DNA of 62,342 nt, the filler included, from Babesia bigemina (Eukaryota): the NCBI RefSeq assembly GCF_000981445.1. It is 14 parts of 14 records of this genome, joined end to end, with 100 filler letters (N's around TTAATTAATTAA, not from the genome) between each part and the next. Parts side by side here need not be neighbours in the genome. Positions count along the whole stretch, not along the records: positions 16,351 to 18,881 come from NW_012236937.1; 13 more parts are not named here. One strand, written 5' to 3'. Positions 5,350 to 59,030 of the stretch are shown piece after piece. The notes beneath the pieces are model-generated. The model was given only the letters and a program-made list of their open reading frames with translations, searched no databases and had not been told where the DNA came from. Each line of letters begins with the position of its first letter. The stretch's first letter is position 1. The position numbers and the translations under genes are program-made.

Positions 5350-5561
5350 NNNNNNNNNNNNNNNNNNNNNNNNNNNNNNNNNNNNNNNNNNNNTTAATTA
5401 ATTAANNNNNNNNNNNNNNNNNNNNNNNNNNNNNNNNNNNNNNNNNNNNTTACACATCACATACAACGATAAATGAGTGATTCAAAACATTAGACAACAA
5501 TTAGTTGTATAGGTGAGTAGGTGATGCTAGGTGAGTGTAGACAGTAAACACGTGAGTACGA

Positions 5562-7618: not shown

Positions 7619-7719
7619 NNNNNNNNNNNNNNNNNNNNNNNNNNNNNNNNNNNNNNNNNNNNTTAATTAATTAANNNNNNNNNNNNNNNNNNNNNNNNNN
7701 NNNNNNNNNNNNNNNNNNT

Positions 7720-9783: not shown

Positions 9784-9935
9784 TTTGGCTTCGGTCTACA
9801 CACATCAGCTAACAGACTGTTTATCACGACTCGTCNNNNNNNNNNNNNNNNNNNNNNNNNNNNNNNNNNNNNNNNNNNNTTAATTAATTAANNNNNNNNN
9901 NNNNNNNNNNNNNNNNNNNNNNNNNNNNNNNNNNN

Positions 9936-11738: not shown

Positions 11739-12095
11739 CAGCCCCCAGGCTCACGTGACGACTACCCGTACAACTCACAGTATAATTTTATAATTAAGGC
11801 AGCGCCGACTGCTACACAATGGTGCTACCGATACTACAATACTTCATAGCGATAGCCGTAGATCTACAGGGATTTTCATGCGGCATTTGAGAATTGGCAC
11901 TGTATATGAACCGCTTCTGTGTTGATAATATCACATTCTGCCTATGACAACGGGAAAATGTTAGTATGATTTTAATTGATTACTGTCGTACTCTTNNNNN
12001 NNNNNNNNNNNNNNNNNNNNNNNNNNNNNNNNNNNNNNNTTAATTAATTAANNNNNNNNNNNNNNNNNNNNNNNNNNNNNNNNNNNNNNNNNNNN

Positions 12096-12957
<862 letters not shown>

Positions 12958-13000
12958 TCAATACTGACCATTTAAATCATACCTGACCTCCATAGCAGAA

Positions 13001-13032
13001 AGTCAAAAGCCTCCGACCGGAGGCTTTTGACT
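13001..13032. terminator. tonB bidirectional terminator (vector); second copy at 14114-14145
   Basis: Perfect hairpin AGTCAAAAGCCTCCG-AC-CGGAGGCTTTTGACT. Confidence 0.9.
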
Positions 13033-13135
13033 TGATCGGCACGTAAGAGGTTCCAACTTTCACCATAATGAAATAAGATCACTACCGGGCGTATTTTTTG
13101 AGTTATCGAGATTTTCAGGAGCTAAGGAAGCTAAA

Positions 13136-13915
13136 ATGAGTATTCAACATTTCCGTGTCGCCCTTATTCCCTTTTTTGCGGCATTTTGCCTTCCTGTTTT
13201 TGCTCACCCAGAAACGCTGGTGAAAGTAAAAGATGCTGAAGATCAGTTGGGTGCACGAGTGGGTTACATCGAACTGGATCTCAACAGCGGTAAGATCCTT
13301 GAGAGTTTACGCCCCGAAGAACGTTTTCCAATGATGAGCACTTTTAAAGTTCTGCTATGTGGCGCGGTATTATCCCGTATTGACGCCGGGCAAGAGCAAC
13401 TCGGTCGCCGCATACACTATTCTCAGAATGACTTGGTTGAGTACTCACCAGTCACAGAAAAGCATCTCACGGATGGCATGACAGTAAGAGAATTATGCAG
13501 TGCTGCCATAACCATGAGTGATAACACTGCGGCCAACTTACTTCTGGCAACGATCGGAGGACCGAAGGAGCTAACCGCTTTTTTGCCACAACATGGGGGA
13601 TCATGTAACTCGCCCTTGATCGTTGGGAAACCCGGAGCTGATGAAGCCATACCAAACGACAAGCGTGACACCACGATGCCTGTAGCAATGGCAACAACGT
13701 TGCGCAAACTATTAACTGGCGAACTACTTACTCTAGCTTCCCGGCAACAATTAATAGACTGGATGGAGGCGGATAAAGTTGCAGGATCACTTCTGCGCTC
13801 GGCCCTCCCGGCTGGCAGGGTTATTGCTGATAAATCTGGAACCGGGAGCGGGGGTTCCCCCGTATCTTTCAGCCCTGGGGCCCGATTGAAAGCCCTCCCG
13901 CATCGAATTATTTAA
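13136..13915 (+). CDS. bla: TEM beta-lactamase (vector), with read errors in the 3' half
   Basis: [30 protein letters not shown]...MMSTFK. Confidence 0.95.
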
Positions 13916-14143
13916 CGACGGGAAGTCGCCAATCTGGGTAAACGAAATANNNNNNNNNNNNNNNNNNNNNNNNNNNNNNNNNNNNNNNNNNNNTTAATTA
14001 ATTAANNNNNNNNNNNNNNNNNNNNNNNNNNNNNNNNNNNNNNNNNNNNAACGAATTCTCTAGATATCGCTCAATACTGACCATTTAAATCATACCTGAC
14101 CTCCATAGCAGAAAGTCAAAAGCCTCCGACCGGAGGCTTTTGA

Positions 14144-15110
<967 letters not shown>

Positions 15111-15302
15111 GTGACCAAACAGGAAAAAACCGCCCTTAACATGGCCCGCTTTATCAGAAGCCAGACATTAACGCTTCTGGAGAAACTCAACGAGCTGGAC
15201 GCGGATGAACAGGCAGACATCTGTGAATCGCTTCACGACCACGCTGATGAGCTTTACCGCAGCTGCCTCGCGCGTTTCGGTGATGACGGTGAAAACCTCT
15301 GA
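15111..15302 (+). CDS. rop: ColE1 Rop copy-number regulator (vector)
   Basis: MTKQEKTALNMARFIRSQTLTLLEKLNELDADEQADICESLHDHADELYRSCLARFGDDGENL. Confidence 0.98.
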   Translation: MTKQEKTALNMARFIRSQTLTLLEKLNELDADEQADICESLHDHADELYRSCLARFGDDGENL

Positions 15303-15325
15303 TGAGGGCCCAAATGTAATCACCT

Positions 15326-15353
15326 GGCTCACCTTCGGGTGGGCCTTTCTGCG
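15326..15353 (+). terminator. T7Te terminator (vector)
   Basis: GGCTCACCTTCGGGTGGGCCTTTCTGCG. Confidence 0.9.
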
Positions 15354-15364
15354 TTGCTGGCGTT

Positions 15365-15952
15365 TTTCCATAGGCTCCGCCCCCCTGACGAGCATCACAA
15401 AAATCGATGCTCAAGTCAGAGGTGGCGAAACCCGACAGGACTATAAAGATACCAGGCGTTTCCCCCTGGAAGCTCCCTCGTGCGCTCTCCTGTTCCGACC
15501 CTGCCGCTTACCGGATACCTGTCCGCCTTTCTCCCTTCGGGAAGCGTGGCGCTTTCTCATAGCTCACGCTGTAGGTATCTCAGTTCGGTGTAGGTCGTTC
15601 GCTCCAAGCTGGGCTGTGTGCACGAACCCCCCGTTCAGCCCGACCGCTGCGCCTTATCCGGTAACTATCGTCTTGAGTCCAACCCGGTAAGACACGACTT
15701 ATCGCCACTGGCAGCAGCCACTGGTAACAGGATTAGCAGAGCGAGGTATGTAGGCGGTGCTACAGAGTTCTTGAAGTGGTGGCCTAACTACGGCTACACT
15801 AGAAGAACAGTATTTGGTATCTGCGCTCTGCTGAAGCCAGTTACCTCGGAAAAAGAGTTGGTAGCTCTTGATCCGGCAAACAAACCACCGCTGGTAGCGG
15901 TGGTTTTTTTGTTTGCAAGCAGCAGATTACGCGCAGAAAAAAAGGATCTCAA
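15365..15952 (-). other. ColE1/pMB1 replication origin (vector)
   Basis: TTTCCATAGGCTCCGCCCCCCTGACGAGC...AAAAAAGGATCTCAA. Confidence 0.97.
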
Positions 15953-15973
15953 GAAGATCCTTTGATTTTCTAC

Positions 15974-16003
15974 CGAAGAAAGGCCCACCCGTGAAGGTGA
16001 GCC
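15974..16003 (-). terminator. T3Te terminator (vector)
   Basis: Reverse complement is GGCTCACCTTCACGGGTGGGCCTTTCTTCG. Confidence 0.85.
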
Positions 16004-16474
16004 AGTGAGTTGATTTCAGTCCAGTTACGCTGGAGTCTGAGGCTCGTCCTGAATGATATCAAGCTTGAATTCGTTGCGCCGAGTGGCTGGTTAGGTATGA
16101 TTCAAATGGTCAGTCTTGCGCGATATCCCGAGCATTCTCCCGCAAATCCCACGAGTTCGCGAGTGACTACACCTCGTCAGAGCAGTGATGACGGTTAGAT
16201 GCGGCTCAGCGCCCTTGCTGGCAACTGCGGACGAATGCTTGGATCTCTGANNNNNNNNNNNNNNNNNNNNNNNNNNNNNNNNNNNNNNNNNNNNTTAATT
16301 AATTAANNNNNNNNNNNNNNNNNNNNNNNNNNNNNNNNNNNNNNNNNNNNGTAACTACTCACTTAGAGAATCACCTACTCACCTAAAATACAAACGTAGT
16401 CTAATGTCTCGAATTACTCTAGCGGCAACCTGTGAACTAAATAGCACCTAATGAGGTGATGAGTGGACGACAGA

Positions 16475-16828
16475 GCAACGTGTCAACCTAGCACACAGGC
16501 AACGTGCTAAGCTGGCAACCAGGCAAAGTGGTAACCTAGCAACCAGGCAAAGTGCTAAGCTGGCACCCAGGCAAAGTGGTGACCTAGCAACCAGGCAAAG
16601 TGTTGACCTAGCACACAGGCAAAGTGCTAAGCTAGCACCCAGGCAAAGTGCTAAGCTTGCAACCAGGCAAAGTGCTAAGCTAGCAACCAGGCAAAGTGGT
16701 GAGCTAGCACCCAGGCAAAGTGCTAAGCTAGCACACAGGCTAAGTGCTAAGCTAGCACGCAGGCAACGTGCTAACTTAACAACCAGGCAAAGTGCTAAGG
16801 TAGCAACCAGGCAAAGTGCTAAGCTGGC
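16475..16828 (+). repeat. 24-bp tandem repeat (CAAAGTGCTAAGCTAGCAACCAGG)
   Basis: Direct inspection; 8-aa periodicity in the overlapping spurious ORFs. Confidence 0.95.
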
Positions 16829-17330
16829 GGATGAAACGTAATTTGGTAGGTGTTGTAGCACGTTGATTGCCTGGTGCGTTGAGTTGTGCGTTGACTGTGA
16901 GAGGTGTCCGCGTTGCCCATTGAGTCAGTGTCACGTGAGGCTGGGTGATTGGTTGCTGACGTAGGCGGTCGTGAGGGCCGCGGCGGGTGGCCTAAGTCGT
17001 GTGTTGCGAGTCGCTGGCAGGGTGGCGTAATCTGCGTTGGTCTCGTTAAGCAGCATTTATAGGCGTCAATGTAGCGATTGTTAATATCACATTTAGGCAC
17101 GTAGCCGACACGCTCCGCCAGTATGGCGCCGATACCGCGGCTCGTAGCACGGTGCTGCTGCACTGTGGGAGTTGAGCGCACGGGTCGCTGCAATTTTAAT
17201 GGCGGTGCGAATAATGAATAATTTATAGTGACAGTTGGTGCTAGTCACATGCGCCGCGTCAGGGCATCTGTGGTATCCCGGGCAGCTTGGGTGTCGGTGG
17301 CCTGGGCTGGTGGCATACAGGGGTGAGGGT
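16826..17330 (+). promoter_or_regulatory. Conserved ~500-bp GC-rich element, copy 1 (putative promoter/5' exon or ncRNA)
   Basis: Four highly similar copies, each directly upstream of a small Cys-rich gene and in the same orientation. Function is inferred. Confidence 0.6.
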
Positions 17331-17339
17331 TATGTAAGT

Positions 17340-17793
17340 CATGTCGCAGTTGGTGAGTGCTTGCGTAGGTGATTGATATGCTTGCAGCTTGAGGGGAGTG
17401 GGCGTGGCAGTGGTAGTGTTGCAGTTGGTGAGTGCGTTGCTAGGTGATTGACATGTCTGCAGGTTGAGGGGACTGGGCGCGGCAGTGGTACGTGTTGCAG
17501 TTGGTGAGTGCGTTGCTTAGGTGATTGATATGTTCGCAGGTTGAGGGGAGTGGGAGCGGCAGTGGTAGTGTTGCAGTTGGTGAGTGCGTTGCTAGGTGAT
17601 TGATATACTTGCAGGTTGAGGGGAGTGGGAGCGGCAGTGGTACGTGTTGCAGTTGGTGAGTGCGTTGCTAGGTGATTGACATGCTTGCAGGTTGAGGGGA
17701 CTGGGAGCGGCAGTGGTAGTGTTGCAGTTGGTGAGTGCTGCTTAGGTGATTGATATGTTTGCAGGCTGAGGGGACTGGGAGGGAAGCGGGAAG
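17340..17793 (+). repeat. 75/76-bp tandem repeat with intron/micro-exon-like structure (~6 units)
   Basis: Unit is GTGAGTGCGTTGCTAGGTGATTGATATGCTTGCAG (35 nt) plus GTTGAGGGGACTGGGAGCGGCAGTGGTA(C)GTGTTGCAGTTG (40-41 nt). Confidence 0.9.
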
Positions 17794-18255
17794 ATGGGCT
17801 ATACTCCATTGTGTAAGTGTACAAAACGATGTACAGAGCATGAGTGTCTTTGTTGTCATTTGTGTTGTGCAGGATGTAGGAGTCCAAGTTGTCTTCGATG
17901 TCTCAATCTGTCTACTCGGCTAAGGAGTGGATTCTGGGACTGCAAACCTCAGAGATGTAATGAATGTGACACCAAATTGTGTCCATGTGACTGTTGTGAG
18001 AAAAAAAAATTGGAAGAACGTCGACAGCTTCGCTCTTCTTCCTCCCTCGCAGTCCAATCGCCTAGTGTCTCCTCTTCTACCACCGTACAGCGTTCCACCG
18101 GTGAACCCAGTGCTGTTCATACCACCGCTCCATCCAATTCCTCCCCCGTCCCTTACATCATCGCCGCCGTCGCCCTCCTCATCGTCGTCGTCTGCGTCAT
18201 GGTCTACTTCCGCATCCGGCCGTTCCACAGGGTGCGGTATCTACTGCGCAGCTGA
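17794..18255 (+). CDS. Small 18-Cys hypervariable single-TM protein, copy 1 (153 aa, tail YFRIRPFHRVRYLLRS)
   Basis: ATG in the conserved GGGAAG-ATG context. Cys scaffold, Ser-rich linker, TM and tail are shared with three paralogues in the window. Confidence 0.85.
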   Translation: MGYTPLCKCTKRCTEHECLCCHLCCAGCRSPSCLRCLNLSTRLRSGFWDCKPQRCNECDTKLCPCDCCEKKKLEERRQLRSSSSLAVQSPSVSSSTTVQRSTGEPSAVHTTAPSNSSPVPYIIAAVALLIVVVCVMVYFRIRPFHRVRYLLRS

Positions 18256-18343
18256 TCACAATAACCTAACTGGCAACTGACATCTAATGTGCTAGACAGA
18301 GTAATGGTTGTACTGATGCTAAATAAAATTAGCAGTGAGGTGA

Positions 18344-18475
18344 CCACTCCCTCCCTACTCCGTCATCGTCGCCATCATCCTGCTCGACCTGTGCATCTTC
18401 CGCTTCCCGGTGGGCCGCAACATCCGCGATTTCCTCGTACGCAAGATTCCCTTCTGCATCGCGTTCTACAGCTGA
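18344..18475 (+). pseudogene. Orphan TM-tail cassette (PYSVIVAIILLDLCIFRFPVGRNIRDFLVRKIPFCIAFYS*)
   Basis: Same tail as gene 50502-51074. It has no ATG and is preceded by an in-frame TGA within GAGGTGAC. Confidence 0.85.
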
Positions 18476-18602
18476 ACTATGCAATTTAGTAGCGCATAAA
18501 TCGTTCGTCCATATTCCACTGCTCACCTAACTGGCAACTGACATCTAATGTTCTAGACAGTAATGATTGCGTTGATGGCCAATTACATGAGCAGTGAGGT
18601 GA

Positions 18603-18761
18603 CTACTTCACTCTCCCTACTCGGCCATCGCCGCCGTCATCGTTGGCATCATCGTCGCCATCATCCTGCTCGACCTGTGCATCTTCCGCTTTCCGGTGGG
18701 CCGCAACATCCGCGATTTCCTCGTACGCAAGATACCCTTCTGCATCGCGTTCTACAGCTAA
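18603..18761 (+). pseudogene. Orphan TM-tail cassette (PYSAIAAVIVGIIVAIILLDLCIFRFPVGRNIRDFLVRKIPFCIAFYS*)
   Basis: Second tandem copy, with the same flanks as 18344-18475. Confidence 0.85.
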
Positions 18762-18981
18762 ACTCAGCAATATGTTGGCGCTAACATTCTTAATCGAAAT
18801 CCCACAGATCACCTGACTGGCGACTGACATCTAATGTTCTAGACAGAGTAGCAATTGCGTTGATGATCAATGACATGAGCANNNNNNNNNNNNNNNNNNN
18901 NNNNNNNNNNNNNNNNNNNNNNNNNTTAATTAATTAANNNNNNNNNNNNNNNNNNNNNNNNNNNNNNNNNNNNNNNNNNNN

Positions 18982-23316: not shown

Positions 23317-23339
23317 TAACTTGATCAGGTGCTTGGTTA

Positions 23340-23893
23340 ACACGTAGCTTGCGTGCTCGCTTAGCACTTTGCCTGGGTGCCAGCTTAGCACTTTGCCTGG
23401 GTGCTAGCTTAGCACGTTGCCTGGGTGCTAGCTTACCACTTTGCCTGGTTGCTAGGTTAGCACTATGCCTGTTTGCTAGCTTAGCACTTTGCCTGGGTGC
23501 TAGGTCAACACGTTGCCTGGGTGCTAGCTTAGCACTTTGCCTGTGTGCTAGCTTAGCACTTTGCCTTAGTGCTAGGTTGACACGTTGCCTGAGTGCTAGG
23601 TTACCACTTTGCCTGGTTGCCAGCTTAGCACTTTGCTTGTGTGCTAGCTTAGCACTTAGCCTGGGTGCCAGCTTACCACGTTGCCTGGGTGCTAGGTCGC
23701 CACGTAGCCTGGGTGCTAGGTCAACACTTTGCCTGGTCGCTAGGTCAGCACTTCGCCTGGTTGCTAGCTTAGCACGTTGCCTGGGTGCTAGCTTAGCACT
23801 TAGCTTGTGTGCTAGCTTAGCACTTAGCCTGGGTGCAAGCTTAGCACTTTGCCTGGGTGCTAGGTCAACACGTTGCTTGGTCAACACGTTGCT
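23340..23893 (-). repeat. 24-bp tandem repeat
   Basis: Reverse complement of the 16475 unit. Confidence 0.95.
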
Positions 23894-32700: not shown

Positions 32701-33070
32701 AGCGATGTGGAGTGGGCTAAGGGGCGATGTAGAGTGGATAAGGGAGCGATGTAGAGTGGATAAAGGGGCGATGTAGAGTGGGTTAGGGAGCGATGTAGAG
32801 TGGATTAAGGGGCGATGTAGAGTGGATTAAGGAGCGATGTAAGGTGGGTTAGGGAGCGATGTAGAGTGGGTAAAGGAGCGATGTAGAGTGGGTAAAGGGG
32901 CGATGTAGAGTGGATAAAGGGGCGATGTAGAGTGGGTTAAGGAGCGATGTAGAGTGCATTAGGGAGCGATGTAGAGTGGGTTAAGGGGCGATGTAGAGTG
33001 CATTAGGGAGCGATGTAGAGTGGGTTAAGGGTCGATGTGGAGTGGGTAAAGGGGCGATGTGGAGTGGGTA
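29795..33070. repeat. 23-bp G-rich arrays (29795-30141 and 30242-33070, separated by a linker)
   Basis: Direct inspection; more than 100 units. Confidence 0.98.
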
Positions 33071-33092
33071 ATAATCACCACTTTGGTCACCA

Positions 33093-33370: not shown

Positions 33371-33814
33371 TTAGCTGCGCAGTAGATACCGCACCCTGTG
33401 GAACGGCCGGATGCGGAAGTATATCATGGCGCAGATGACGACGATGACGAGGGCGATAGGTGCGATGATGTAAGGCGCGGGGGAACCGGTGGTAGGCGGT
33501 TGAATGACGGCTTGATGCTCAGCTGTGCGGGAAGAAGAGGAACCGGAGTCAAGGGCGGCACTGGGAGTTAAAGAGAGACGGGAAGGGTAGAGGACTATGC
33601 GTTTCTCGACACAACAGTTACATAGACAGTCGCTGTAACACTCTTTACATCTCGAATGATCGCACTGCTCCTGTCCATTCTTGCGCAAATAGGAGAAGTG
33701 GATACATTGAAGACACCGTGCTATACATCCTTTACAACACCAAGAACAGCAATTACACACTACCTCTTCTTTGCATTGCTTATTACACTTGTAACACCGC
33801 TCCCCTTTCCCCAT
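33371..33814 (-). CDS. Small 18-Cys hypervariable single-TM protein, copy 2 (147 aa)
   Basis: Same scaffold, start context and YFRIRPFHRVRYLLRS tail. Confidence 0.85.
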   Translation of the reverse strand: MGKGERCYKCNKQCKEEVVCNCCSWCCKGCIARCLQCIHFSYLRKNGQEQCDHSRCKECYSDCLCNCCVEKRIVLYPSRLSLTPSAALDSGSSSSRTAEHQAVIQPPTTGSPAPYIIAPIALVIVVICAMIYFRIRPFHRVRYLLRS

Positions 33815-34979: not shown

Positions 34980-37900
34980 TTACGGTTGTAGATACGATAT
35001 TTTGGCAAGCCTTCCGACTTGCGCTGCCGCCAACAGCGATTGCGCCGTTATCCTGTGCGATGATGGTGATCGTAAGTGCGATTTGATGTGCAGCACATCC
35101 AGTCTGCCAACCATCACGCAGATGAGGTAGAAGAGGGAGAGTGACCAGAGCGCTAGGGTCATCCACAGGAATGGTGCGCGGATGGTGAACATGAAATTAT
35201 CAATGGCTTTGAAGAACTGCACAAGATGTGAGTCTTTCTCAAATGCCTCCTTAAATACATTACAGAAATCTCTGCACGTGCGTTTCGTATGCGATTGTCC
35301 ATCCCTGTTCAGCCTCTCTGGATCGCCGAGAACAAAGCCGTATTTTGCCAATGTCGGCAGCGTTGAATTGCACTTTACAATGGATTTGCATTTGGGATCG
35401 TGATATCGTGGCGGTTGATACGTCGTTGATGTAGTTGGACACTCCTTGACGCACGCTTTTTGATGACAATTCGATCCCCTGGCACCGCATTTGGAGTTGC
35501 ACTCATCGTACAACTTTTTAAGCAGATCGTAGAACGATGCCGTCAGATAGACAATCCACGACAAATACTTATCGGCGTGTTTTGCTGAGAACGTCTCGTA
35601 GATGGCGTGACCGATGGGCCGCAGATAAGGACCGCATACGACGGCGTCCCGTGATAAGCATACGAGACTGGCCAGGCTACCAGCGGCATGCCCCTTCCAC
35701 GCTGCTGAGTGACTAGCGGAAAATAAGTGGTAGACGTTCAAATCATTATACTGACGCCCGAAATTGGCTGCGTTAACTTTCTCATTAAATGCCCGTTGTT
35801 TATGCGCTTGACCATACATACCCCAGCGATCGGTGAGGTGATAGTAGAAGCTGAACATGTCCGCCAGCGTTTTCGGCGCACTAGGCAGAAGGCAGTTGAG
35901 GTAACTGCACAGTCTAGTGAGCGGCGAATTTGGACGGCCACAGAAATACACAAGCACATCGCATATATCCCGGCCAATCATCGTATGCGACGCGATGGCG
36001 CTGATGTCGGCGAAGCCCATTGGAGTTCGGCACGGCATACCAGGTGAATTACCACAAGTGCCACATGACAGACTGGATCCCCTAGCCGTAACCGAATGCG
36101 GCAGGTGGCCTTTCAGACCGTCCTCCAAGAACGATTGCAGTGGCGACTTGACGCCGCAGCTGGGATATTGCTCACCCGTTTGGTTGCCACTTTGGTCATG
36201 CCTTTGGTCACAGTCTTGCTTAGGGCATTGCTTCGTGTTGCACTGCCAGCCCGACCCACCGATGTACCTGCCGTAGTGGCAGTCCCTCCAGCCGCTGAGC
36301 TGTGCGTTGTACTTACACTGCTGCAGCAGGAAGTACAGCTGGTGGTAGAGGCGCTTAAGCAGGTCGAACAACGTGCACAACAGTTGAATCATGTTGGTAG
36401 GGTAATCTAATTTCAGCGAGTTGTCGGAGAAATCACACGCGTAGATTCCGTCCTTGTGACCGTGGCCTAGGATAGCGGTGAGGACGGCGTGGGAGTTGGC
36501 AGACACTTTGTAGAGCGCTTCGTCGATATGCGTGTGTTCAAAGTCAGACGGGTGCGTATCGAAGGGCTGCAGTATCTTCTCACCCGGACGTTGCTTGTCC
36601 TCCTTCATGAACTCGGACTCAATGTGCTTCTTCAGCTTGCCGTACACGGGGTTGAACTGCAGGCCGTTGCACCAGACAAGAATTTCGTAAACGGAGCATG
36701 GAGCCCTGGGTTTGTCAACACGAGTAAGGTGGCATACAGCGAAGTACGTCTGCAGGAAATCATAGAGTTTTCGGATGAGACCACTCTCCTCCGCGATGGT
36801 TACATCAAGCTCGTCCGACCCGGATGTGGATGAAGGAATGCCGGTGACGGGAGATGACAGATGACTGAACAAATTATGCGTCTCGTTGGTAAGGTGTTCG
36901 AGAATGCTGCTACCATTAAAATCAGTTTTGTGATTCAGCTCGCCATGCTCAGCGTTCTCAGGACGATGGACGTCATACCCGTTGTCGCGGAAGAAGAGAG
37001 CGCGGAGGCTGGAGGTGCCGTCAGCTGGGTGATATATTTTGTGGCCATCCCAACCGCTGTATTCGAGTCTATTCTTGAGTTCAGTTAGAGCGTCGTATAA
37101 GATGGGCGTGATGGTCCAACAGATTTTGGCGTAGTTTCTTCTTTCCGCCTCGGTGAGTTTCTCCCATTCGATGGTCCTCAAAGAATACGTTGAAACGTAG
37201 GCTTTTTTGAGCTCCTCGACGAGAGGGGTGAAGCCTGCTTTTAGAGCATTGAGGAGTGAGGGGCACTTGGCTGCGCCGTAGGTAGAGGGCTTGAAGGCGG
37301 TAACAGATTCATTAAGGTTACTCAGGTTCTTGGTGAAGACATGATCGAAGTGCAGTGATTGTGCTAGGACAGTGAGTAAGTTTGTCACTGCGTTGTACGA
37401 AGGCTTGATTTTGGAGGAGTCAGACTCGACATCAGTTTGATTCTGCAGATTAAGGAGGAATGATTTAAAGGCGCCGTGTGATATCGATGCCGCCTCTCTT
37501 AATGGTGACGTTACAGCTGTGAAGGTGTTGGGATTGACATCTTCAATCTGCTCTACCCTCGCAATAAACTTCCCCGCCAGCCTGTTCATGAACCCCTTGT
37601 AACCGATGTCCAGATCGTCGGTGATTTCCTTAGGTAGAGGCTCCAACTCCTTCTCGGCTTTCTCCGCGAACTCTAGCAGAATGGCCTTCACCGAAGTGAC
37701 GTAGTTCTTGTTGACCTGGGTGATCAGAGTGTTCTGAGCTTCGTCGACGTTGGAGCTTACTACTTTGCCAATCGATGCGATTGTCGCCTGGGCTGTTGGA
37801 CCGGCGCTGGTGAGGAAGTTTTCAGCCTCTTTGATGGCCGCGCTTAAATCAATCAATCGCAGGTCGTTGAGTTTGTTTTTGACGTATTCAAGTTGCCCCT

Positions 37901-40349
37901 TTATGGTCTCCGTTTTAATTGTGTCCAGGTTCCACTTCGCGTTGGAGGCTTCGTCTTTAAGGATCTTACATAGCTCACTGAGCGTGGACTTGACGCTTTC
38001 TATATCCTCATTAGCATATCTATTGTAATCGTCAATTGACGTTAGAGCGTTTTTTACATCATCTCGTATTTTTTTAATTGCCTCTGGCAGGGTGCCTGCT
38101 AACTTATTTGGATCTCGATCCGCGACTGCCAAACTTTCTGGCCTTTGGTCAACTTGCAACTTATATTTTCCAAAAATCGTTATATCCGTATCTTGAAGGT
38201 TAACTTTATCTGCACCAAGATATCCCGGAAACTGCTGCTCAAGCGTATTTGTTACTCCTCTGATTGCAGTGTCGACGTCAGCCGCAAGGTTATTCGTTTT
38301 TCCAGATGAACCAACAGGTTGCCCAAGCGCTGCTTTTAGCTTATCGAATAACAGATTCACTTTACTGTGAGCGTCATCGATTTTGGCTGCGATACTGTTC
38401 TTTGAGCCGTTTGGCCTTTGCTTGAGAGCAAAGGAGTGCAACTCTTTTGCGGCTTGCTTGGCTCTGGAAGACATCGCTGATAGCGTTATCAAAATGGCGA
38501 GGTGGAGATTCGTGTTGTCGTACGGCGGAAATGATTGCGGCTTGGATTTATTCACTAAGACAGCCTCAATGGATTGAACGGTATTGTTGAAAAGCGAATT
38601 AAGGTTTCTATCAAGTTCGCTGGCAAATTGCATTATACGTGAGTGTATATTTTGGAGATTCTCGTGAACGTTCTCCGCTGAAGGCAGGTTGACACTTGTA
38701 GCCGTGTTGATTGTATCATCTAGATGCGCAGTAAGTTTTTCTTTAACGGTTGTATTTATACCATCAATCCCATGTTTGTGGAGATTGGTGTCATTGAATT
38801 TATCTCTGTTTTCCCGCACATATTGCAATATATAGCTTTTGTATGTGTGATCCTCTTTCAATATATCGGATACCCACTCACCGACCGTATCCCTAAATCC
38901 ATTGCCGTACTGGTAAACATATCCGCTTACTCCTCTTTCAATACCATTCAGACCTGCGCCATCCCTTCCGCCTCCCTTGATTGCCCCAACTTTATTTCGA
39001 AGTTCTGTTATGATATCTTCAACACTTTTATGCTGTTCGCCTGCTACTCGGCCGGCACTAGAATCTTTAGGGAAATTATTCCCAAGCTCCTTAATATTTG
39101 TATCAACCTTATCGACTGCTTCCTTAATGGCCTTCTTCACCTTAAACAAATCCGCTTTCAGCTCACCGTCCATCGTTATGACAGCTCTAAGCGCTGCCGT
39201 GACTTCCGTTTGAACTTTTCGTTTAGCATCATCTCCTGCGCTGTGGAGCACTAATACTGCAGCTTTCAACTGCTCCACGACGCTATGCATTCTATACGTC
39301 TTCGTGCTGGAATCCTTCTCATTCGATTCCGCCAATACTTTATTCACCTTTTCCAGCGCCACATTCACATAGCTCTCCGCCTTCTTCATACACGCTTCTA
39401 GCTGCTTAACGTATTTTTCCAGATCTGTGCTTATCTCCCTCAGCTTCTTCAAAATTTTCTGCACCCTCAATTTCAAATCATTAACTAATTTATCTATATC
39501 GTCACCCACCTGCTTGTTTATGCAGCTCTTCAAATTGCGGAAACTTGTCTTAATCTTCTCCGTCGTCTCCTTCAACTCAGCGTCTTTCCGCTTGTGCACG
39601 CTGGCCAGCCGCTGGCTCTCGTACTCAACAAGCTTACGAACATGCAACACTTTGTCACGCAACTTATCATTAAGGTCATAAATGTTTTTTTTCATCTTAG
39701 TGTTGTTATTTGCCTTGGGGTCCAGGAATTCCGCGCACCTCTTGCTCCTATCTGTGGCCTCCTTCAGCCGGTCGCCGCAGGACCTTACGGCGTCGGCCAG
39801 CTGTGGATCCAGATCATGTTTGTCAACCTGAATCTTATTAATGCTAGTAATCAACTCACCTCCATTTTTCTTGGTGTAGTCGAGCAGTTTTTTAAGCGGC
39901 TCAATCACTGCTTCATTAGAAGACTTTACATTACCATTATACCCCCGCACCCCTGCGACCACCTTTTCAATCGCAACACTAAAACCTTTTTTGCCAAGGT
40001 GTTTATTGGCCTCAAGTGACTTAATAGCTTCTGTAATTTGCTCTTTATGCTGCCCTAAATGGCCATGGATGTTACTAAGCACACCACTCAAAAATCCCAT
40101 CACCCCGTCACACAGCCTGTCCAAGTCAGAGTACACAATCCCCTGGCCGTCGTAGCCTTTGGAGGCAGAGTCGAAGCCGAGGAAGGTTTCGAGGCCAGAG
40201 CAGAGGTTAGTAAGGATGTTAGTAGGGTTGTTATTTGAGGTGATTTTAAGGTTCAAAATTTCATCAAATTTCTTGTCAAGCTCCCTAGGCGGTACATGGT
40301 CAGGGCAGTGGCAGAGGTGGAAGGAGGGAAGTGAAGGGTGACCAGGCAC
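34980..40349 (-). CDS. ves1: Long VESA1-family gene (1789 codons, tail type B); first in-frame ATG at 40100
   Basis: Same domain order and conserved blocks as 24037-29562. Confidence 0.9.
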   Translation of the reverse strand: MPGHPSLPSFHLCHCPDHVPPRELDKKFDEILNLKITSNNNPTNILTNLCSGLETFLGFDSASKGYDGQGIVYSDLDRLCDGVMGFLSGVLSNIHGHLGQHKEQITEAIKSLEANKHLGKKGFSVAIEKVVAGVRGYNGNVKSSNEAVIEPLKKLLDYTKKNGGELITSINKIQVDKHDLDPQLADAVRSCGDRLKEATDRSKRCAEFLDPKANNNTKMKKNIYDLNDKLRDKVLHVRKLVEYESQRLASVHKRKDAELKETTEKIKTSFRNLKSCINKQVGDDIDKLVNDLKLRVQKILKKLREISTDLEKYVKQLEACMKKAESYVNVALEKVNKVLAESNEKDSSTKTYRMHSVVEQLKAAVLVLHSAGDDAKRKVQTEVTAALRAVITMDGELKADLFKVKKAIKEAVDKVDTNIKELGNNFPKDSSAGRVAGEQHKSVEDIITELRNKVGAIKGGGRDGAGLNGIERGVSGYVYQYGNGFRDTVGEWVSDILKEDHTYKSYILQYVRENRDKFNDTNLHKHGIDGINTTVKEKLTAHLDDTINTATSVNLPSAENVHENLQNIHSRIMQFASELDRNLNSLFNNTVQSIEAVLVNKSKPQSFPPYDNTNLHLAILITLSAMSSRAKQAAKELHSFALKQRPNGSKNSIAAKIDDAHSKVNLLFDKLKAALGQPVGSSGKTNNLAADVDTAIRGVTNTLEQQFPGYLGADKVNLQDTDITIFGKYKLQVDQRPESLAVADRDPNKLAGTLPEAIKKIRDDVKNALTSIDDYNRYANEDIESVKSTLSELCKILKDEASNAKWNLDTIKTETIKGQLEYVKNKLNDLRLIDLSAAIKEAENFLTSAGPTAQATIASIGKVVSSNVDEAQNTLITQVNKNYVTSVKAILLEFAEKAEKELEPLPKEITDDLDIGYKGFMNRLAGKFIARVEQIEDVNPNTFTAVTSPLREAASISHGAFKSFLLNLQNQTDVESDSSKIKPSYNAVTNLLTVLAQSLHFDHVFTKNLSNLNESVTAFKPSTYGAAKCPSLLNALKAGFTPLVEELKKAYVSTYSLRTIEWEKLTEAERRNYAKICWTITPILYDALTELKNRLEYSGWDGHKIYHPADGTSSLRALFFRDNGYDVHRPENAEHGELNHKTDFNGSSILEHLTNETHNLFSHLSSPVTGIPSSTSGSDELDVTIAEESGLIRKLYDFLQTYFAVCHLTRVDKPRAPCSVYEILVWCNGLQFNPVYGKLKKHIESEFMKEDKQRPGEKILQPFDTHPSDFEHTHIDEALYKVSANSHAVLTAILGHGHKDGIYACDFSDNSLKLDYPTNMIQLLCTLFDLLKRLYHQLYFLLQQCKYNAQLSGWRDCHYGRYIGGSGWQCNTKQCPKQDCDQRHDQSGNQTGEQYPSCGVKSPLQSFLEDGLKGHLPHSVTARGSSLSCGTCGNSPGMPCRTPMGFADISAIASHTMIGRDICDVLVYFCGRPNSPLTRLCSYLNCLLPSAPKTLADMFSFYYHLTDRWGMYGQAHKQRAFNEKVNAANFGRQYNDLNVYHLFSASHSAAWKGHAAGSLASLVCLSRDAVVCGPYLRPIGHAIYETFSAKHADKYLSWIVYLTASFYDLLKKLYDECNSKCGARGSNCHQKACVKECPTTSTTYQPPRYHDPKCKSIVKCNSTLPTLAKYGFVLGDPERLNRDGQSHTKRTCRDFCNVFKEAFEKDSHLVQFFKAIDNFMFTIRAPFLWMTLALWSLSLFYLICVMVGRLDVLHIKSHLRSPSSHRITAQSLLAAAQVGRLAKISYLQP

Positions 40350-50249: not shown

Positions 50250-50375
50250 TTAGCTGCGCAGTAGATACCGCACCCTGTGGAACGGCCGGATGCGGAAGTA
50301 GATCATGGCGCAGATGACGAGGATGATGACGGCGACGGCGGCGATGATGTAAGGGAAGGACGTTGGGGGAAGATG
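50250..50375 (-). pseudogene. Orphan TM-tail cassette (PYIIAAVAVIILVICAMIYFRIRPFHRVRYLLRS*)
   Basis: Matches the tail of copies 1, 2 and 4, lies downstream of copy 3, and starts after the TGA in GAGGTGAC. Confidence 0.85.
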
Positions 50376-50501: not shown

Positions 50502-51074
50502 TCAGCTGTAAAACGCGATGCAGAAGGGTATCTTGCGTACGAGGAAATCGCGGATGTTGCGGCCCACCGGGAAGCGGAAGATGCACAGGTCGAGCAGGAT
50601 GATGGCGACAATGATGGCAACGATGACGGCGGCGATGGCTTGGGGGTCAGGGGAAAAAGGTGTGGAGTCTTCTTCAGTAGGGTCTTCGATGGAATCTTCA
50701 TTACCGCTGGTACGACGTAGTGCACTGTTCTCGGACAGATCACCGGAGGAATCAGGGGGAGGCGGTGGAGGTGGAGGCTGTGGAACGGGGGCACTGCACT
50801 CGTCAGGCCGCTCTCTACATTTCCGTTGACAACAGTCACATTTACATTGTAACTCGTTGCCTGCACATTTGGTTATACAATCGAAGGTTTTGCAATTGTA
50901 ACTTGGATCCTTGTTATTTTGCCGCTTCCAGGTATATGCAAAACACTCATAACAACGGGATAAACTATCCGTATTACATTCTTTGCAACACCAGGGACAG
51001 CAGTTACAAACCTGCATATATTTACACTTTTTGTTACACCTAGTGCATGGTTTCCCTGGCCAATAATGAGTCAT
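50502..51074 (-). CDS. Small Cys-rich single-TM protein, copy 3 (190 aa, 18+2 Cys, alternative tail FRFPVGRNIRDFLVRKIPFCIAFYS)
   Basis: Same scaffold and GGGAAG-ATG context; Pro-rich linker. Confidence 0.85.
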   Translation of the reverse strand: MTHYWPGKPCTRCNKKCKYMQVCNCCPWCCKECNTDSLSRCYECFAYTWKRQNNKDPSYNCKTFDCITKCAGNELQCKCDCCQRKCRERPDECSAPVPQPPPPPPPPDSSGDLSENSALRRTSGNEDSIEDPTEEDSTPFSPDPQAIAAVIVAIIVAIILLDLCIFRFPVGRNIRDFLVRKIPFCIAFYS

Positions 51075-51750: not shown

Positions 51751-51764
51751 CATGACTTACTTAA

Positions 51765-52549: not shown

Positions 52550-53943
52550 TTACGGTTGTAGATACGATATCTTGGCAAGCCTTCCGACTTGCGCTGCCGC
52601 CAACAATGATTGAGCAGTTATCCTGTGCGATGACGGTATCCTCAGGTGTGACCTGATGTGGAGCACATCCAGCCTGCCAACCATTACGCAGATGAGGTAG
52701 AAGAGGGATAGTGACCAGAGCGCCACGGTCATCCACAGGAACGGTGAGCGGATGGTGAACATGAAATTATCAATGGCTTTGAATAACTGCACAAGATGTG
52801 AGTCCTTCTCAAATGACTCCGCGAATACTGTACAGAAATCTCTGCACGTGCGTTTTTTCTCAATGCCTGCACTTCCGTTCAGCCTCTCTGGATCGCCGAG
52901 AACGAAGCCGTACTTCGCCAATGTCGGCAGCGTGGAATTGCACTTTACAATGGATTTGCATTTGGGATCGTGATATCGTGGTGGATCATGTTTGGATGTA
53001 GTTCTACAATCTTTGATGCACGCCTTTTCATGGCAATTCGATCCCCTGGAACCGCATTTGGAATTGCACTCATCATACAGTTTCTTCAGCAGATCGTAGA
53101 ACGATGCCGTCAGATAGACAATCCAGGACAGATACTTATCGGCGTGTTCTGACGAGAACGTCTCGTAGATGGTGTGACTGATGGGACGCAGATAAGGACC
53201 GCATACGATGGCTTCCCTTGATAAGCATACGAGACTGCCCAGGCTACCATCGGAGTGGCCCTTCTTCAATGCCGAGTGACTAGGGGTAAATAAGTGGTAG
53301 ACGTTCAGCTCATTATACTGACGTCCGAAATTAGCTGCTTTAACTTTCTCCTCAAATGCCTCTTTCTTGTGTTTGTTACCGTGCATACCCCAGCGATCGG
53401 TGAGGTGATGGTAGAAGCTGAACATGTCCGCCAGCGTTTTCGGCGCACTAGGCAAAAGGCAGTTGAGGTAACTGCACAGCCTTGTGAGAGGGGAGTTAGG
53501 ACGGCCACAGAAATCGTAAAGCACCTCGCATATATTCCGGCCTATCATCGTATGCGACGCGATGGCACTGATGTCAGCGAAGCCCATCGGAGTTCTGCAC
53601 GGCATACCAGGTGAATTACCACACGTGCTACATGACAGACTCGATCCCCTAGCTATCACCGAATGCGGCAGGTGGCCCTTCAAACCGTCCTCCAAGAACG
53701 ATTGCAGTGGCGACGTGACGCCGCAGTTGGGATATTGCCCACCCGTTTGGTTGCCACTTTGGTCGTGCCTTTGGTCGCAGTCTTGCTTAGGGCATTGCTT
53801 CGTGTTGCACTGCCAGCCGGACCCACCGATGTACCTGCCGTAGTGGCACTCCCTCCAGCCGCTGAGCTGAGTTGTAAGTTGACACTGCTGCATCAGGAAG
53901 TACAGCTGGTGGTAGAGGCGCTTGAGCAGGTCGAACAACGTCA
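52550..53943 (-). CDS. ves1: VESA1-family gene, C-terminal part (tail type B), cut by contig end
   Basis: Closely similar to the C-terminal ~460 aa of 34980-40349. Confidence 0.88.
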
Positions 53944-56160: not shown

Positions 56161-56261
56161 NNNNNNNNNNNNNNNNNNNNNNNNNNNNNNNNNNNNNNNN
56201 NNNNTTAATTAATTAANNNNNNNNNNNNNNNNNNNNNNNNNNNNNNNNNNNNNNNNNNNNC

Positions 56262-56438
56262 GTCGCGCTCTGGCTCCTCTCTCTCCTCTACCTCACCCAC
56301 ATCATGGTCATCCGCCTCGACCTCCTCCACATCAAGTCACACTTACACTCACCCTCATCACATCGCATAGCTGCTCAATCACTACTCGCCGCTGCACGTG
56401 TTAACAAGCTTAACAGAGTGTTTTACCTGCAACCATAA
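56262..56438 (+). CDS. ves1: VESA1-family gene, last 58 codons (tail type A)
   Basis: VALWLLSLLYLTHIMVIRLDLLHIKSHLHSPSSHRIAAQSLLAAARVNKLNRVFYLQP*. Confidence 0.9.
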   Translation, partial: VALWLLSLLYLTHIMVIRLDLLHIKSHLHSPSSHRIAAQSLLAAARVNKLNRVFYLQP

Positions 56439-58574: not shown

Positions 58575-59030
58575 ATGTCGAAGTGTAAGTGTGATAATAC
58601 ATGTCAGCCGCGTGAGTGTAGATGCTGCCAGTACTGTTGTAAGAGATGTGGTTTATGTGAAGAATGTCGTGATATATACTTTGAGCGCAAAGGTACAGGC
58701 GAATGCCATCGTTTGAAATGTCTTGGTTGTTTAACCAACTGTGTTTGTTTATGTTGCAGAAGTGATCGCTTTACTGTTACCTATACTCGTTATTACAGCA
58801 GTCCAGAGCGTGCCGGCTCTACCTCCCGTGTTGCCGCTGTCCCCGGTTCCGCCTCTCGCCCCGATTCTCAGCACCGGGTCTCCGCTCAACAGTCCTCCAC
58901 CGCTTCCACCCCCAACGTCCTCCCGTACATCATCGCCGCCGTCGCCGTCATCATCATCGTCGTCGTCTGCGTCATGATCTACTTCCGCATCCGGCCGTTC
59001 CACAGGGTGCGGTATCTACTGCGCAGCTGA
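58575..59030 (+). CDS. Small 18-Cys hypervariable single-TM protein, copy 4 (151 aa)
   Basis: Same scaffold, start context and YFRIRPFHRVRYLLRS tail. Confidence 0.85.
   Translation: MSKCKCDNTCQPRECRCCQYCCKRCGLCEECRDIYFERKGTGECHRLKCLGCLTNCVCLCCRSDRFTVTYTRYYSSPERAGSTSRVAAVPGSASRPDSQHRVSAQQSSTASTPNVLPYIIAAVAVIIIVVVCVMIYFRIRPFHRVRYLLRS

What the first reader, a model, noticed from the sequence alone, without database searches (positions are those of the whole stretch)
17794..18255. Candidate new variant family: ves-linked 18-Cys hypervariable membrane mini-proteins
Seen: four paralogues (17794, 33371, 50502, 58575) keep the scaffold C-x1-2-C-x3-C-x4-5-C-x-CC-x2-CC-x2-C-x2-7-C-x2-C-x12-16-C-x4-C-x2-3-C-x3-6-C-x-C-x-CC while almost every other ectodomain residue differs. 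A Ser/Pro linker, one TM and an invariant basic tail follow. There is no signal peptide. Each lies co-oriented downstream of a ves 3' end or flank. Known: VESA1 and PfEMP1 share this topology (no signal peptide, C-terminal TM, conserved tail), whereas B. bovis SmORFs have signal peptides and differ. Inference: a second diversifying surface antigen or VESA partner on a disulfide- or metal-stabilised scaffold. I cannot confirm novelty without a search.
Basis: partly seen in the sequence, partly recalled or inferred. Interest (0 to 1): 0.9.

Follow-up and report, generated by a model that had tools for sequence, protein, structure and literature searches.

The report
Unnamed cysteine-rich mini-protein family beside ves1
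Four intact copies of an unnamed Babesia bigemina gene family lie just downstream of the parasite's main variant-antigen (ves1) genes; each encodes a small membrane protein whose 18-cysteine frame is fixed while almost every other residue differs, so it is likely a second variable exported or surface protein, although its expression is untested.

Summary
Four intact ORFs (147-190 aa) share an invariant 18-Cys scaffold. Non-Cys identity in that domain is only 9-27%. A Ser/Thr/Pro-rich linker, one TM helix 14-25 residues from the C-terminus and a conserved basic tail follow, with no N-terminal hydrophobic segment. All four lie downstream of, and co-oriented with, a ves1 3' end or its repeat flank.

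New findings:
- The window is 14 unplaced Babesia bigemina contigs joined by N44-TTAATTAATTAA-N44 linkers.
- The family has 60 annotated B. bigemina relatives, all called "hypothetical protein". None was found in any other organism. Only about 17 of the 60 keep the full scaffold.
- There are two homologous tail types. Orphan TM-tail cassettes of the other type follow two of the genes.
- Conserved flanks surround the variable core: a 75-bp repeat array on the 5' side, and the TM-tail plus an ~80-nt 3' element on the other. Synonymous divergence is 0.04-0.21 in the TM-tail against 0.6-1.5 in the Cys domain. Tail type re-assorts on the Cys-domain tree. Both point to recombination.

No similarity to ves1 or any Pfam or PDB family was found. 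Expression, topology and function remain untested. The papers read do not name the family.

The parts
17794..18255 (+). mini-gene m1: 153 aa, 18-Cys domain, S/T/P linker, TM, tail A
   Evidence: ORF; family HMM E 7e-39; Cys pattern
33371..33814 (-). mini-gene m2: 147 aa, 18 Cys, tail A. Lies 1.17 kb downstream of the ves1 stop at 34980
50502..51074 (-). mini-gene m3: 190 aa, 20 Cys, Pro/acidic linker, tail B. Lies 1.48 kb downstream of the ves1 stop at 52550
58575..59030 (+). mini-gene m4: 151 aa, 18 Cys, tail A. Lies 2.1 kb downstream of the ves1 C-terminus ending at 56438
18344..18472 (+). orphan tail-B cassette with shortened TM, downstream of m1
   Evidence: tblastn 95% to the m3 tail; HMM E 2.5e-20; translation
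18603..18758 (+). orphan complete TM + tail-B cassette, downstream of m1
   Evidence: E 1.8e-25
50253..50375 (-). orphan complete TM + tail-A cassette, downstream of m3
   Evidence: E 9e-13
18264..18344 (+). conserved ~80-nt 3' element after the m1 stop. Further copies at 18525-18603 (+), 18811-18881 (+, cut by contig end), 33282-33362 (-), 50162-50241 (-), 50375-50453 (-) and 59039-59117 (+)
   Evidence: The 23-nt core has 7 matches against 0 expected, all after a mini-gene or cassette stop. The 14-nt end motif has 6 matches. Alignment
17342..17781 (+). 75-bp tandem array abutting the m1 start codon. Equivalent arrays at 57951-58568 (m4) and 51086-51752 (m3), and about two such units at 33815-33960 (m2)
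   Evidence: TRF; flank alignment conserved up to ...GGGAAGATG
16488..16825 (+). 24-bp tandem array that follows ves1 stops. Further copies at 34412-34821, 52240-52408, 56955-57436 and 23328-23863
34980..40100 (-). complete ves1 gene (1706 aa) upstream of m2, with its own TM, tail and stop
   Evidence: exact protein is in the public collection on an 11,509-bp contig
52550..53893 (-). ves1 3' part (447-aa ORF ending ...ISYLQP) upstream of m3
56261..56438 (+). ves1 C-terminal end (...VFYLQP stop) at the start of the contig that carries m4

Best explanation
These four ORFs are intact members of an unnamed Babesia bigemina multigene family encoded in the repeat-filled spacer 3' of ves1 genes. The product is predicted to be a single-pass membrane protein, and its hypervariable 18/20-Cys N-terminal domain is likely disulfide-bonded and exposed on the luminal/extracellular side. 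It would act as a second variable exported protein alongside VESA1.

Shown:
- The ORFs, the invariant Cys frame and the two homologous tail types.
- The position downstream of ves1.
- The restriction of detectable relatives to B. bigemina.
- A mosaic gene structure: a fast-diverging core lies between homogenised flanks (75-bp repeat array up to the ATG on one side; TM, tail and an ~80-nt 3' element on the other).
- Tail types re-assort relative to Cys-domain phylogeny, and spare TM-tail cassettes of the other type sit downstream of two genes.

Inferred:
- The conserved flanks serve as recombination substrates, so that cores and tails are exchanged among copies as in segmental gene conversion of ves1. 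Truncated copies would act as a sequence archive.
- The basic tail stays cytosolic, with the Cys domain across the membrane.
- Expression is sparse or mutually exclusive.

Not shown: transcription, translation, location, and any contact with VESA1.
For: Coding reality:
- 17 Cys are invariant and 1 is kept in at least 90% of 20 full-length members that are otherwise 24-49% identical to m1.
- 6 of 16 invariant Cys columns use both TGT and TGC.
- The start Met is invariant. An in-frame TGA lies 8-10 codons upstream in all four window copies (read from the sequence).
- 4 of 4 window copies are intact.

Family size and range:
- 56 of 56 hits are B. bigemina. 41 of 43 are B. bigemina in the exhaustive scan of 1.84 billion representatives. 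41 of 41 are B. bigemina.

Mosaic structure and recombination:
- Among tail-A copies dS is 0.04-0.21 in TM+tail against 0.59-1.52 in the Cys domain.
- The 5' and 3' flanks are conserved at nucleotide level.
- A clade with 96/95 support mixes 3 tail-A and 3 tail-B members, and starred branches force at least 2 tail changes.
- Orphan cassettes of the other tail type lie downstream of m1 and m3.

Extracellular or disulfide reading:
- 19 of 21 full-length members have an even number of pre-TM Cys (8 with 18, 11 with 20). The extra Cys come as a pair.
- The tail after the TM is Arg-rich, while the residues before the TM are neutral.
- The linker is a S/T/P- or Pro/acidic-rich stalk.
- Non-Cys identity is 9-27%, with dN/dS 0.6-1.4.
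- The only non-Babesia profile hits are the Cys-repeat + stalk + TM + basic-tail ends of VSP-like proteins: Tritrichomonas at E 9e-5 and an unnamed protein at E 9e-4.

ves1 linkage:
- 4 of 4 in the window.
- On the chromosomes, BBBOND_0303910 and BBBOND_0305330 sit two locus tags after the two dominant VESA1B genes BBBOND_0303890 and BBBOND_0305310.
Against: - There is no signal peptide, and the TM ends 14-25 residues from the C-terminus. That is the geometry of tail-anchored proteins, whose N-terminal domain is cytosolic.
- By motif, only 16 of the 60 annotated B. bigemina relatives have the whole scaffold (17 counting P0028). 25 have only the C-terminal half and 19 have only TM/tail. Several read the Cys region out of frame. 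Much of the family may therefore be decayed.
- dN/dS near 1 on saturated pairs cannot separate diversifying selection from relaxed constraint.
- Both AlphaFold2 models are unreliable in the Cys domain (mean pLDDT 49 and 58), so no disulfide geometry or fold supports the reading.
- The VSP-like hits are marginal and may be compositional.
- The window's contigs are leftover, possibly low-quality assembly pieces. Neighbouring contigs carry a TEM-1 gene at only 92-95% identity.
Confidence: 0.45

Rival explanations
1. Tail-anchored reading. The proteins are inserted post-translationally by their C-terminal TM, so the Cys-rich, Lys/Arg-rich N-terminal domain faces the cytosol of the parasite or of the host cell. 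There it would bind metal (metallothionein- or zinc-cluster-like) or be palmitoylated. It could for instance act as a membrane-attached adaptor in VESA1 trafficking rather than as an exposed antigen.
For: There is no N-terminal hydrophobic segment, and the single TM lies 14-25 residues from the end. 18 Cys fall within about 68 residues, with CC and CxC motifs and 12-14 K+R. No experimentally supported route for translocating a 120-residue N-terminal domain without a signal peptide was tested here.
Against: Cytosolic structural domains are rarely this variable (9-27% non-Cys identity). Cys numbers are even in 19 of 21 members and grow in pairs, which metal clusters do not require. The Arg-rich segment follows the TM, which by the positive-inside rule (established knowledge) favours a cytosolic tail. 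There are few His (1-2) and no Pfam zinc or metallothionein match.
Confidence: 0.2
2. Decaying passenger. A once-functional small gene became trapped in the ves1 3' spacer. It is now copied and homogenised along with the spacer repeats by the recombination that acts on ves1. Most copies would be silent pseudogenes, and the intact ones would have no present function.
For: 43 of the 60 annotated relatives lack the full scaffold. The gene is embedded between tandem arrays that recur in fixed order. 3 of the 6 ves1 3' ends with enough downstream sequence in the window have no mini-gene. The flanks show very low dS, as expected for concerted evolution. I obtained no expression evidence.
Against: 17-18 Cys positions are kept across members whose remaining residues have diverged to 9-27% identity, with synonymous TGT/TGC changes. 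All indels keep the frame in 21 full-length copies. The start codon is invariant. Neutral decay would not spare exactly the Cys codons. A high pseudogene share is also normal for working antigen archives (established knowledge of VSG and ves1 repertoires).
Confidence: 0.15
3. Alternative 3' exon of ves1. The mini-ORF would not be a gene of its own. It would be spliced onto upstream ves1 transcripts, giving VESA1 an alternative Cys-rich, TM and tail end. The 75-bp array would provide GT...AG mini-introns.
For: The ORF is co-oriented and 1.2-2.1 kb downstream of ves1 in 3 of 3 assessable cases. Each 75-bp unit contains a GTGAGT...TTGCAG stretch of about 35 nt, which looks like a short intron. 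Public gene models splice through the array.
Against: The upstream ves1 ORFs have their own TM, tail and stop. In the mini-ORF frame a TGA lies 8-10 codons before the invariant ATG in all four copies, directly after the last acceptor-like CAG. The exhaustive profile search found no Babesia protein longer than 286 aa that carries the domain. The annotated N-terminal extensions hop between frames and are not conserved.
Confidence: 0.05

Closest known systems
Small ves-associated families: B. bovis SmORF and B. bigemina/B. divergens ves2
   Same: Multi-copy small genes interspersed with ves1 and lineage-specific. They are proposed accessory variable proteins of unknown function (Jackson et al. 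2014, passages read; review PMC9477259).
   Different: By those papers SmORF and VESA2 have signal peptides and no membrane anchor, and ves2 is homologous to the ves1 5' end. The present family has no signal peptide, has a C-terminal TM and a conserved tail, and shows no HMM similarity to ves1. The exhaustive profile search returned no B. bovis protein.
VESA1 (ves1a/ves1b) of B. bigemina
   Same: No cleavable signal peptide is evident, and there is one TM near the C-terminus with a conserved basic tail. The variable part lies between conserved ends. Same loci and same orientation.
   Different: VESA1 here is 1,664-1,706 aa, starts MGFLSGVL... and ends ...YLQP. Its tail and TM are unrelated in sequence to tails A and B. 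By Jackson et al. 2014, B. bigemina VESA1 lacks the Cys/Lys-rich CKRD of B. bovis VESA1.
Giardia VSPs and VSP-like Cys-rich type I membrane proteins of trichomonads and ciliates
   Same: A Cys-framed, otherwise hypervariable domain, a stalk, one TM and a short invariant basic tail. A Tritrichomonas EGF/VSP-like protein and an unnamed VSP-like protein were the only non-Babesia profile hits (E 9e-5 and 9e-4). That Giardia VSPs have a CRGKA tail and CXXC motifs is recalled, not tested.
   Different: Those proteins are large, have signal peptides and many CXXC repeats. Pfam VSP and furin-like models do not match the mini-proteins. The hits are marginal, so this is an analogy and not membership.
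Plasmodium RIFIN/STEVOR
   Same: Small variable membrane proteins encoded next to the major variant antigen genes. There were sub-threshold Pfam hits over the linker/TM region (RIFIN E 0.011, Stevor E 0.26).
   Different: Scores of 16.1 and 11.2 bits lie far below the gathering cut-offs of 32 and 25.4. RIFIN and STEVOR have a signal peptide/PEXEL and a two-exon structure (recalled). Their Cys frame is unrelated.
Tail-anchored membrane proteins (a topological class)
   Same: No signal peptide, and a single TM within about 25 residues of the C-terminus.
   Different: This is a class, not a family. Its members normally carry conserved cytosolic domains, not a hypervariable domain with paired Cys.

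Membership tests
VESA1 / ves1 | Sequence homology to the ves1 body or to the conserved VESA C-terminal domain (the only region alignable across ves1; Jackson 2014) | tested here: not met
   A family HMM run against all window ORFs found no ves1 ORF below E 0.05. tblastn of the four proteins found only weak hits (E 0.88 or worse) inside ves1. The tails differ.
VESA1 / ves1 | Large protein (about 1,000 aa or more) with an N-terminus of the MGFLSGVL type | tested here: not met
   The proteins are 147-190 aa, and an in-frame stop precedes the invariant ATG.
ves2 | Homology to the 5' end of ves1b, a signal peptide and no TM (Jackson 2014) | tested here: not met
   No similarity to ves1 ORFs. A TM is present and no N-terminal hydrophobic segment is seen.
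SmORF (B. bovis) | Sequence homology to B. bovis SmORF; signal peptide | tested here: not met
   No B. bovis protein appeared among 43 hits in 1.84 billion representatives. Jackson 2014 found no smORF homologue in B. bigemina by HMM. No SmORF sequence was compared directly.
Giardia VSP (Pfam VSP) / furin-like Cys-rich repeats | Match to the Pfam model above its gathering score; signal peptide; many CXXC repeats | tested here: not met
   No Pfam family reached its cut-off for any of the 4 proteins. There were only marginal profile hits to VSP-like proteins.
RIFIN / STEVOR | Pfam PF02009 / PF17410 above gathering score | tested here: not met
   16.1 bits against a cut-off of 32, and 11.2 against 25.4, confined to the linker/TM region.
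Tail-anchored proteins (class) | No signal peptide; a single TM within about 30 residues of the C-terminus | tested here: met
   The hydropathy maximum lies 14-25 residues from the end, with none at the N-terminus.
Tail-anchored proteins (class) | Post-translational insertion with the N-terminal domain in the cytosol | not testable with these tools
   Needs a protease-protection or insertion assay.
Variant surface antigen (functional kind) | Expressed and exposed on the infected-cell or parasite surface, with switching or mutually exclusive expression | not testable with these tools
   No usable RNA run was found. The published tables were uninformative.
Variant surface antigen (functional kind) | Multi-copy archive with conserved flanks and evidence of recombination among copies | tested here: met
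   60 annotated and 4 unannotated copies. dS contrast between flanks and core. Tail re-assortment. Orphan cassettes.

The most novel reading that the evidence does not exclude
B. bigemina runs a second, unrecognised variant-antigen layer. Each of some 60 or more hypervariable disulfide-knot mini-proteins would be slaved to the 3' flank of a ves1 gene, activated together with it, and inserted beside VESA1 in the red-cell membrane. There it would supply in trans the Cys/Lys-rich module that B. bigemina VESA1 lacks, so the surface antigen would be a VESA1/mini-protein pair. Tails A and B, swapped through the tandem tail cassettes, would decide partner or destination.
Probability: 0.12. Interest if true: 0.85.

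Novelty: new variant of a known kind. Interest (0 to 1): 0.55.

Why it matters
The catalogues of B. bigemina variant families that I read list only ves1a, ves1b and ves2 (review table; review). A family of comparable size (60 annotated copies plus unannotated ones, against 74 ves1a, 80 ves1b and 116 ves2 genes) sits inside the same loci, yet those papers do not name it. All four copies in this window are missing from the public annotation as these ORFs.

If the proteins are made and exposed, they would be a further target or decoy of immunity in bovine babesiosis. They would also affect the interpretation of antigenic variation, of serology, and of ves1-locus transcription.

The two tails are nearly invariant across the family, which would make one or two peptide antibodies sufficient to test the whole family. 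Even if most copies are silent, the fixed module order records how the ves1 loci recombine. That order is ves1, 24-bp array, 75-bp array, mini-gene, tail cassettes, then the 12-, 20- and 22-bp arrays.

Tried and rejected
- **Own genome:** none is held for this window, so copy number and adjacency could not be counted on DNA.
- **RNA runs:** no RNA holder was listed. The single partial holder, X1 (kind guessed as RNA), gave contigs only over the 75-bp repeat (17700-17808) and none over 17820-18881. One 90-nt record reaches 15 nt past the ATG. One 101-nt record runs from the repeat into a paralogue-like start. With depth 2 and an uncertain library kind, this is a hint only. The second read-laying run was not used, because the other listed runs share only a species label with X1.
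- **Published B. bigemina RNA-seq table (PMC9806345, DataSheet_1; 3,721 genes at 1 CPM or more):** 0 of 19 family locus tags are present. However, 0 of 3 named ves genes and 0 of 2 of their neighbours are present either. Reads in that study were mapped to the BOND reference. The absence therefore says nothing specific about this family.
- **Proteome table of Jackson 2014 (file 3, 459 rows):** 0 of 16 family tags were found. My positive control for the accession format failed on a syntax error and was not repeated, and file 1 was unreadable, so this is uninformative.
- **Structure:** AlphaFold2 with 5 and then 20 sequences gave mean pLDDT 49 and 58, with the Cys domain mostly below 60. I ran no fold search because such a model gives meaningless matches.
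- **Other searches:** the PDB sequence search found only TM-like noise at E 5 or worse. The ESM Atlas gave a best score of 0.79, with no lead. Rfam on 16351-18881 found no family at threshold. Earlier findings of this scan held nothing relevant.
- **Two-TM isoform:** some public models join tail A to a downstream tail-B cassette (P0007, P0025, P0039, P0051). In m1 the same acceptor gives a stop after two codons, and the cassettes are out of frame with the 3' element in all three window cases.
- **N-terminal extension or signal-peptide exon:** rejected for the window copies because of the in-frame TGA and the frame-hopping of public models.
- **Antisense ORF:** a conserved ORF (MERPDAEV...D-rich) lies opposite the TM-tail. 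I take it as a by-product of nucleotide conservation.

Full report
**Observation**

I call them m1 to m4 in that order.
- Aligned, they share 16 invariant Cys columns.
- The Cys spacing is C-x1-2-C-x3-C-x4-5-C-x-CC-x2-CC-x2-C-x2-7-C-x2-C-x12-16-C-x4-C-x2-3-C-x3-6-C-x-C-x-CC, as reported. m3 carries one further pair, giving 20 Cys.
- Outside the Cys, the domain is 9-27% identical between copies and the linker 16-29%. TM plus tail is 80-89% identical among the three copies that share a tail.
- The linker is about half S/T/P/Q.
- The only strong hydrophobic window lies 14-25 residues from the C-terminus, and there is none at the N-terminus.
- One correction is needed. The tails are of two kinds: A (...FRIRPFHRVRYLLRS, in m1, m2 and m4) and B (...FRFPVGRNIRDFLVRKIPFCIAFYS, in m3). 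They align position by position, so they are diverged versions of one tail.

**What the window is**

Thirteen identical spacers of 44 N, TTAATTAATTAA and 44 N cut the window into 14 pieces of 1.9-12.1 kb. This is a concatenation of unplaced contigs.
- The 1,706-aa ves1 product of 34983-40100 is in the public protein collection on a contig of 11,509 bp, exactly the length of piece 10. It clusters with a B. bigemina entry.
- The organism is therefore B. bigemina. This is inferred from that match and from the family hits below.
- The exact products of the four mini-ORFs are not in the collection, so as these ORFs they are unannotated.
- Pieces 6 and 7 carry a TEM-1 beta-lactamase at only 92-95% identity to plasmid copies. 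This is vector contamination of poor read quality, and a warning about the quality of these leftover contigs.

**Surroundings**

Seven VESA1 C-termini (...YLQP stop) and four N-termini (MGFLSGVL) are present. The large ves1 ORFs have their own TM, tail and stop. The spacer downstream of ves1 has a recurrent order:
1. A 24-bp array.
2. Optionally, a 75-bp array, the mini-gene and its 3' element.
3. The 12-, 20- and 22-bp arrays (the last up to 2.8 kb and strongly GC-skewed).

Positions of the four genes:
- m2, m3 and m4 lie 1.17, 1.48 and 2.1 kb downstream of, and co-oriented with, a ves1 stop.
- m1's contig starts inside the 24-bp array.
- Three other ves1 3' ends (24037, 43226, 19721) have the arrays but no mini-gene.

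**Gene anatomy**

The 75-bp array runs up to a conserved ...GGGAAGATGG start context. In the ORF's frame a TGA lies 8-10 codons upstream in all four copies, and the Met is invariant in 20 of 20 aligned members.

After the stop comes an ~80-nt element.
- Its 23-nt core occurs 7 times in the window (0 expected by chance). Every occurrence follows a mini-gene or a TM-tail cassette, never a ves1 gene.

Orphan cassettes also follow two of the genes.
- Downstream of m1 lie two orphan TM + tail-B cassettes, one with a shortened TM.
- Downstream of m3 lies one orphan TM + tail-A cassette.

**Family**

- A profile of five members found 56 proteins, all B. bigemina "hypothetical protein".
- The exhaustive HMM scan of 1.84 billion representatives found 43 proteins at E of 0.001 or better. 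Of these, 41 are B. bigemina. The other two are marginal hits to the Cys-repeat/stalk/TM/tail end of a Tritrichomonas EGF-like protein and of an unnamed VSP-like protein.
- A 20-member profile again found only B. bigemina (41 of 41).
- The union is 60 annotated relatives on all four chromosomes and on small contigs.
- By motif, 16 have the complete scaffold (17 counting P0028), 25 have only its C-terminal half, and 19 have only TM/tail. Several models read the Cys region out of frame or translate the 75-bp array through many mini-introns. Without their DNA I cannot say which are real pseudogenes and which are poor models.
- There is no Pfam family, no PDB relative and no similarity to the window's ves1 ORFs.

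**Evolutionary signals**

- Among tail-A copies, synonymous divergence is 0.04-0.21 in TM+tail against 0.59-1.52 in the Cys domain. dN/dS at non-Cys columns is 1.04, 1.41 and 0.61 for the three pairs that are not saturated.
- Six of 16 invariant Cys columns mix TGT and TGC.
- On a Cys-domain tree that is otherwise poorly resolved, one clade with 96/95 support holds three tail-A and three tail-B members, and starred branches force at least two tail changes.
- 19 of 21 full-length members have an even number of pre-TM Cys (8 with 18, 11 with 20). The exceptions are P0018 (19) and P0028 (17).

Together these show protein-level constraint on the Cys frame, homogenised flanks, and exchange between cores and tails.

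**Mechanism**

I commit to this reading: a real, B. bigemina-restricted family of small single-pass membrane proteins that diversifies by recombination between conserved flanks.
- The Cys domain is likely disulfide-bonded and on the exoplasmic side, and the Arg-rich tail cytosolic.
- It would function as a second variable exported or surface protein linked to VESA1.
- The coding, linkage and recombination parts rest on the results above.
- Topology, export, expression pattern and any partnership with VESA1 are inferred.

The main rival is a tail-anchored protein with a cytosolic, metal-binding or acylated Cys domain, which the missing signal peptide and the very C-terminal TM fit equally well. 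Lesser rivals are a decaying passenger of the ves1 spacer and an alternative ves1 3' exon.

**Expression**

None of my attempts gave usable evidence. The control with named ves genes shows that the published RNA table is blind to these loci.

**Comparison with what is in print**

- Jackson et al. 2014 (abstract and passages read) define ves1a, ves1b and ves2. They mention only in general terms other species-specific genes with a conserved C-terminal end and TM.
- The B. ovata and B. caballi genome papers (passages), the 2022 review of red-cell modification (passages) and the 2014 review table of apicomplexan families (passage) list no such family.
- Full-text searches for four family locus tags found no paper, and the other full-text searches turned up no description of such a family.
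- Supplements of bioRxiv preprints, and one supplement file of Jackson 2014, could not be read.
- Two family members sit two locus tags from the two dominant VESA1B genes named in that paper. This fits the linkage seen in the window.

**Verdict**

This is a new, unnamed family of a known general kind: an accessory variable family in variant-antigen loci. It is of moderate to high interest for Babesia biology, conditional on expression.

Noticed in passing
window 2070-2169, 5350-5449, 7619-7718, 9836-9935, 11996-12095, 13950-14049, 16251-16350, 18882-18981, 30142-30241, 41751-41850, 53944-54043, 56161-56260, 60009-60108: Thirteen identical spacers (44 N, TTAATTAATTAA, 44 N) show that the window is 14 unplaced contigs strung together. 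Gene order across a spacer therefore means nothing.
   Followed up: yes
window 12096-16250 (ORFs 13136-13915, 14249-14731, 15205-15690): Class A beta-lactamase (Pfam Beta-lactamase2, E 4e-33). It is 92-95% identical to plasmid blaTEM-1, present on two contigs that also match each other in direct and inverted orientation. Most likely cloning-vector contamination from error-prone reads, not a parasite gene.
   Followed up: partly
window 29796-33071, 40407-42284, 48934-49579, 54048-56160 and shorter arrays: Very long 22-bp tandem arrays (up to 129 copies) with extreme GC skew (0.7-0.8). They follow 20-bp and 12-bp arrays in a fixed order between ves1 genes. Their function is unknown.
   Followed up: no
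window 17342-17781, 51086-51752, 57951-58568: Each 75-bp repeat unit contains a GTGAGT...TTGCAG stretch of about 35 nt that looks like a short intron. Public B. bigemina gene models translate these arrays by hopping frames across such mini-introns. Contigs of run X1 (kind guessed as RNA) cover this repeat at depth 17-55.
   Followed up: partly
window 17249-17323, 57861-57935, 51771-51845 (-), 33892-33984 (-): A conserved unique segment lies at the 5' edge of the 75-bp arrays. In one frame it reads MRRVRASVVSRAAWVSVAWAGG..., and several public models use it as their start. It has a basic then mildly hydrophobic start, but it cannot be joined in frame to the window's mini-ORFs.
   Followed up: partly
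window 5562, 19721, 24037, 34980, 43226, 52550 (-) and 56438 (+): The VESA1 C-termini are of two types: ...GRLAKISYLQP (3 copies) and ...NKLNRVFYLQP (4 copies). Mini-genes follow both types.
   Followed up: no
window 17920-18228 (-), 33398-33571 (+), 50277-50399 (+), 58749-59003 (-): An Asp-rich antisense ORF (MERPDAEVDHDADDDD...) is conserved opposite every TM-tail. It is probably a by-product of the nucleotide conservation of the tail.
   Followed up: no
window 924-1475 (-): A 183-aa ORF with a signal-peptide-like start (MNAFKKVVLLLVGFATVNFASVCVAQA) and a hydrophobic C-terminus. It could be a GPI-anchored surface protein and was not examined.
   Followed up: no
B. bigemina proteins P0007, P0025, P0039, P0051: Public gene models splice tail A to a downstream tail-B cassette, predicting two-TM proteins. 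The window's loci cannot give such products in frame.
   Followed up: partly
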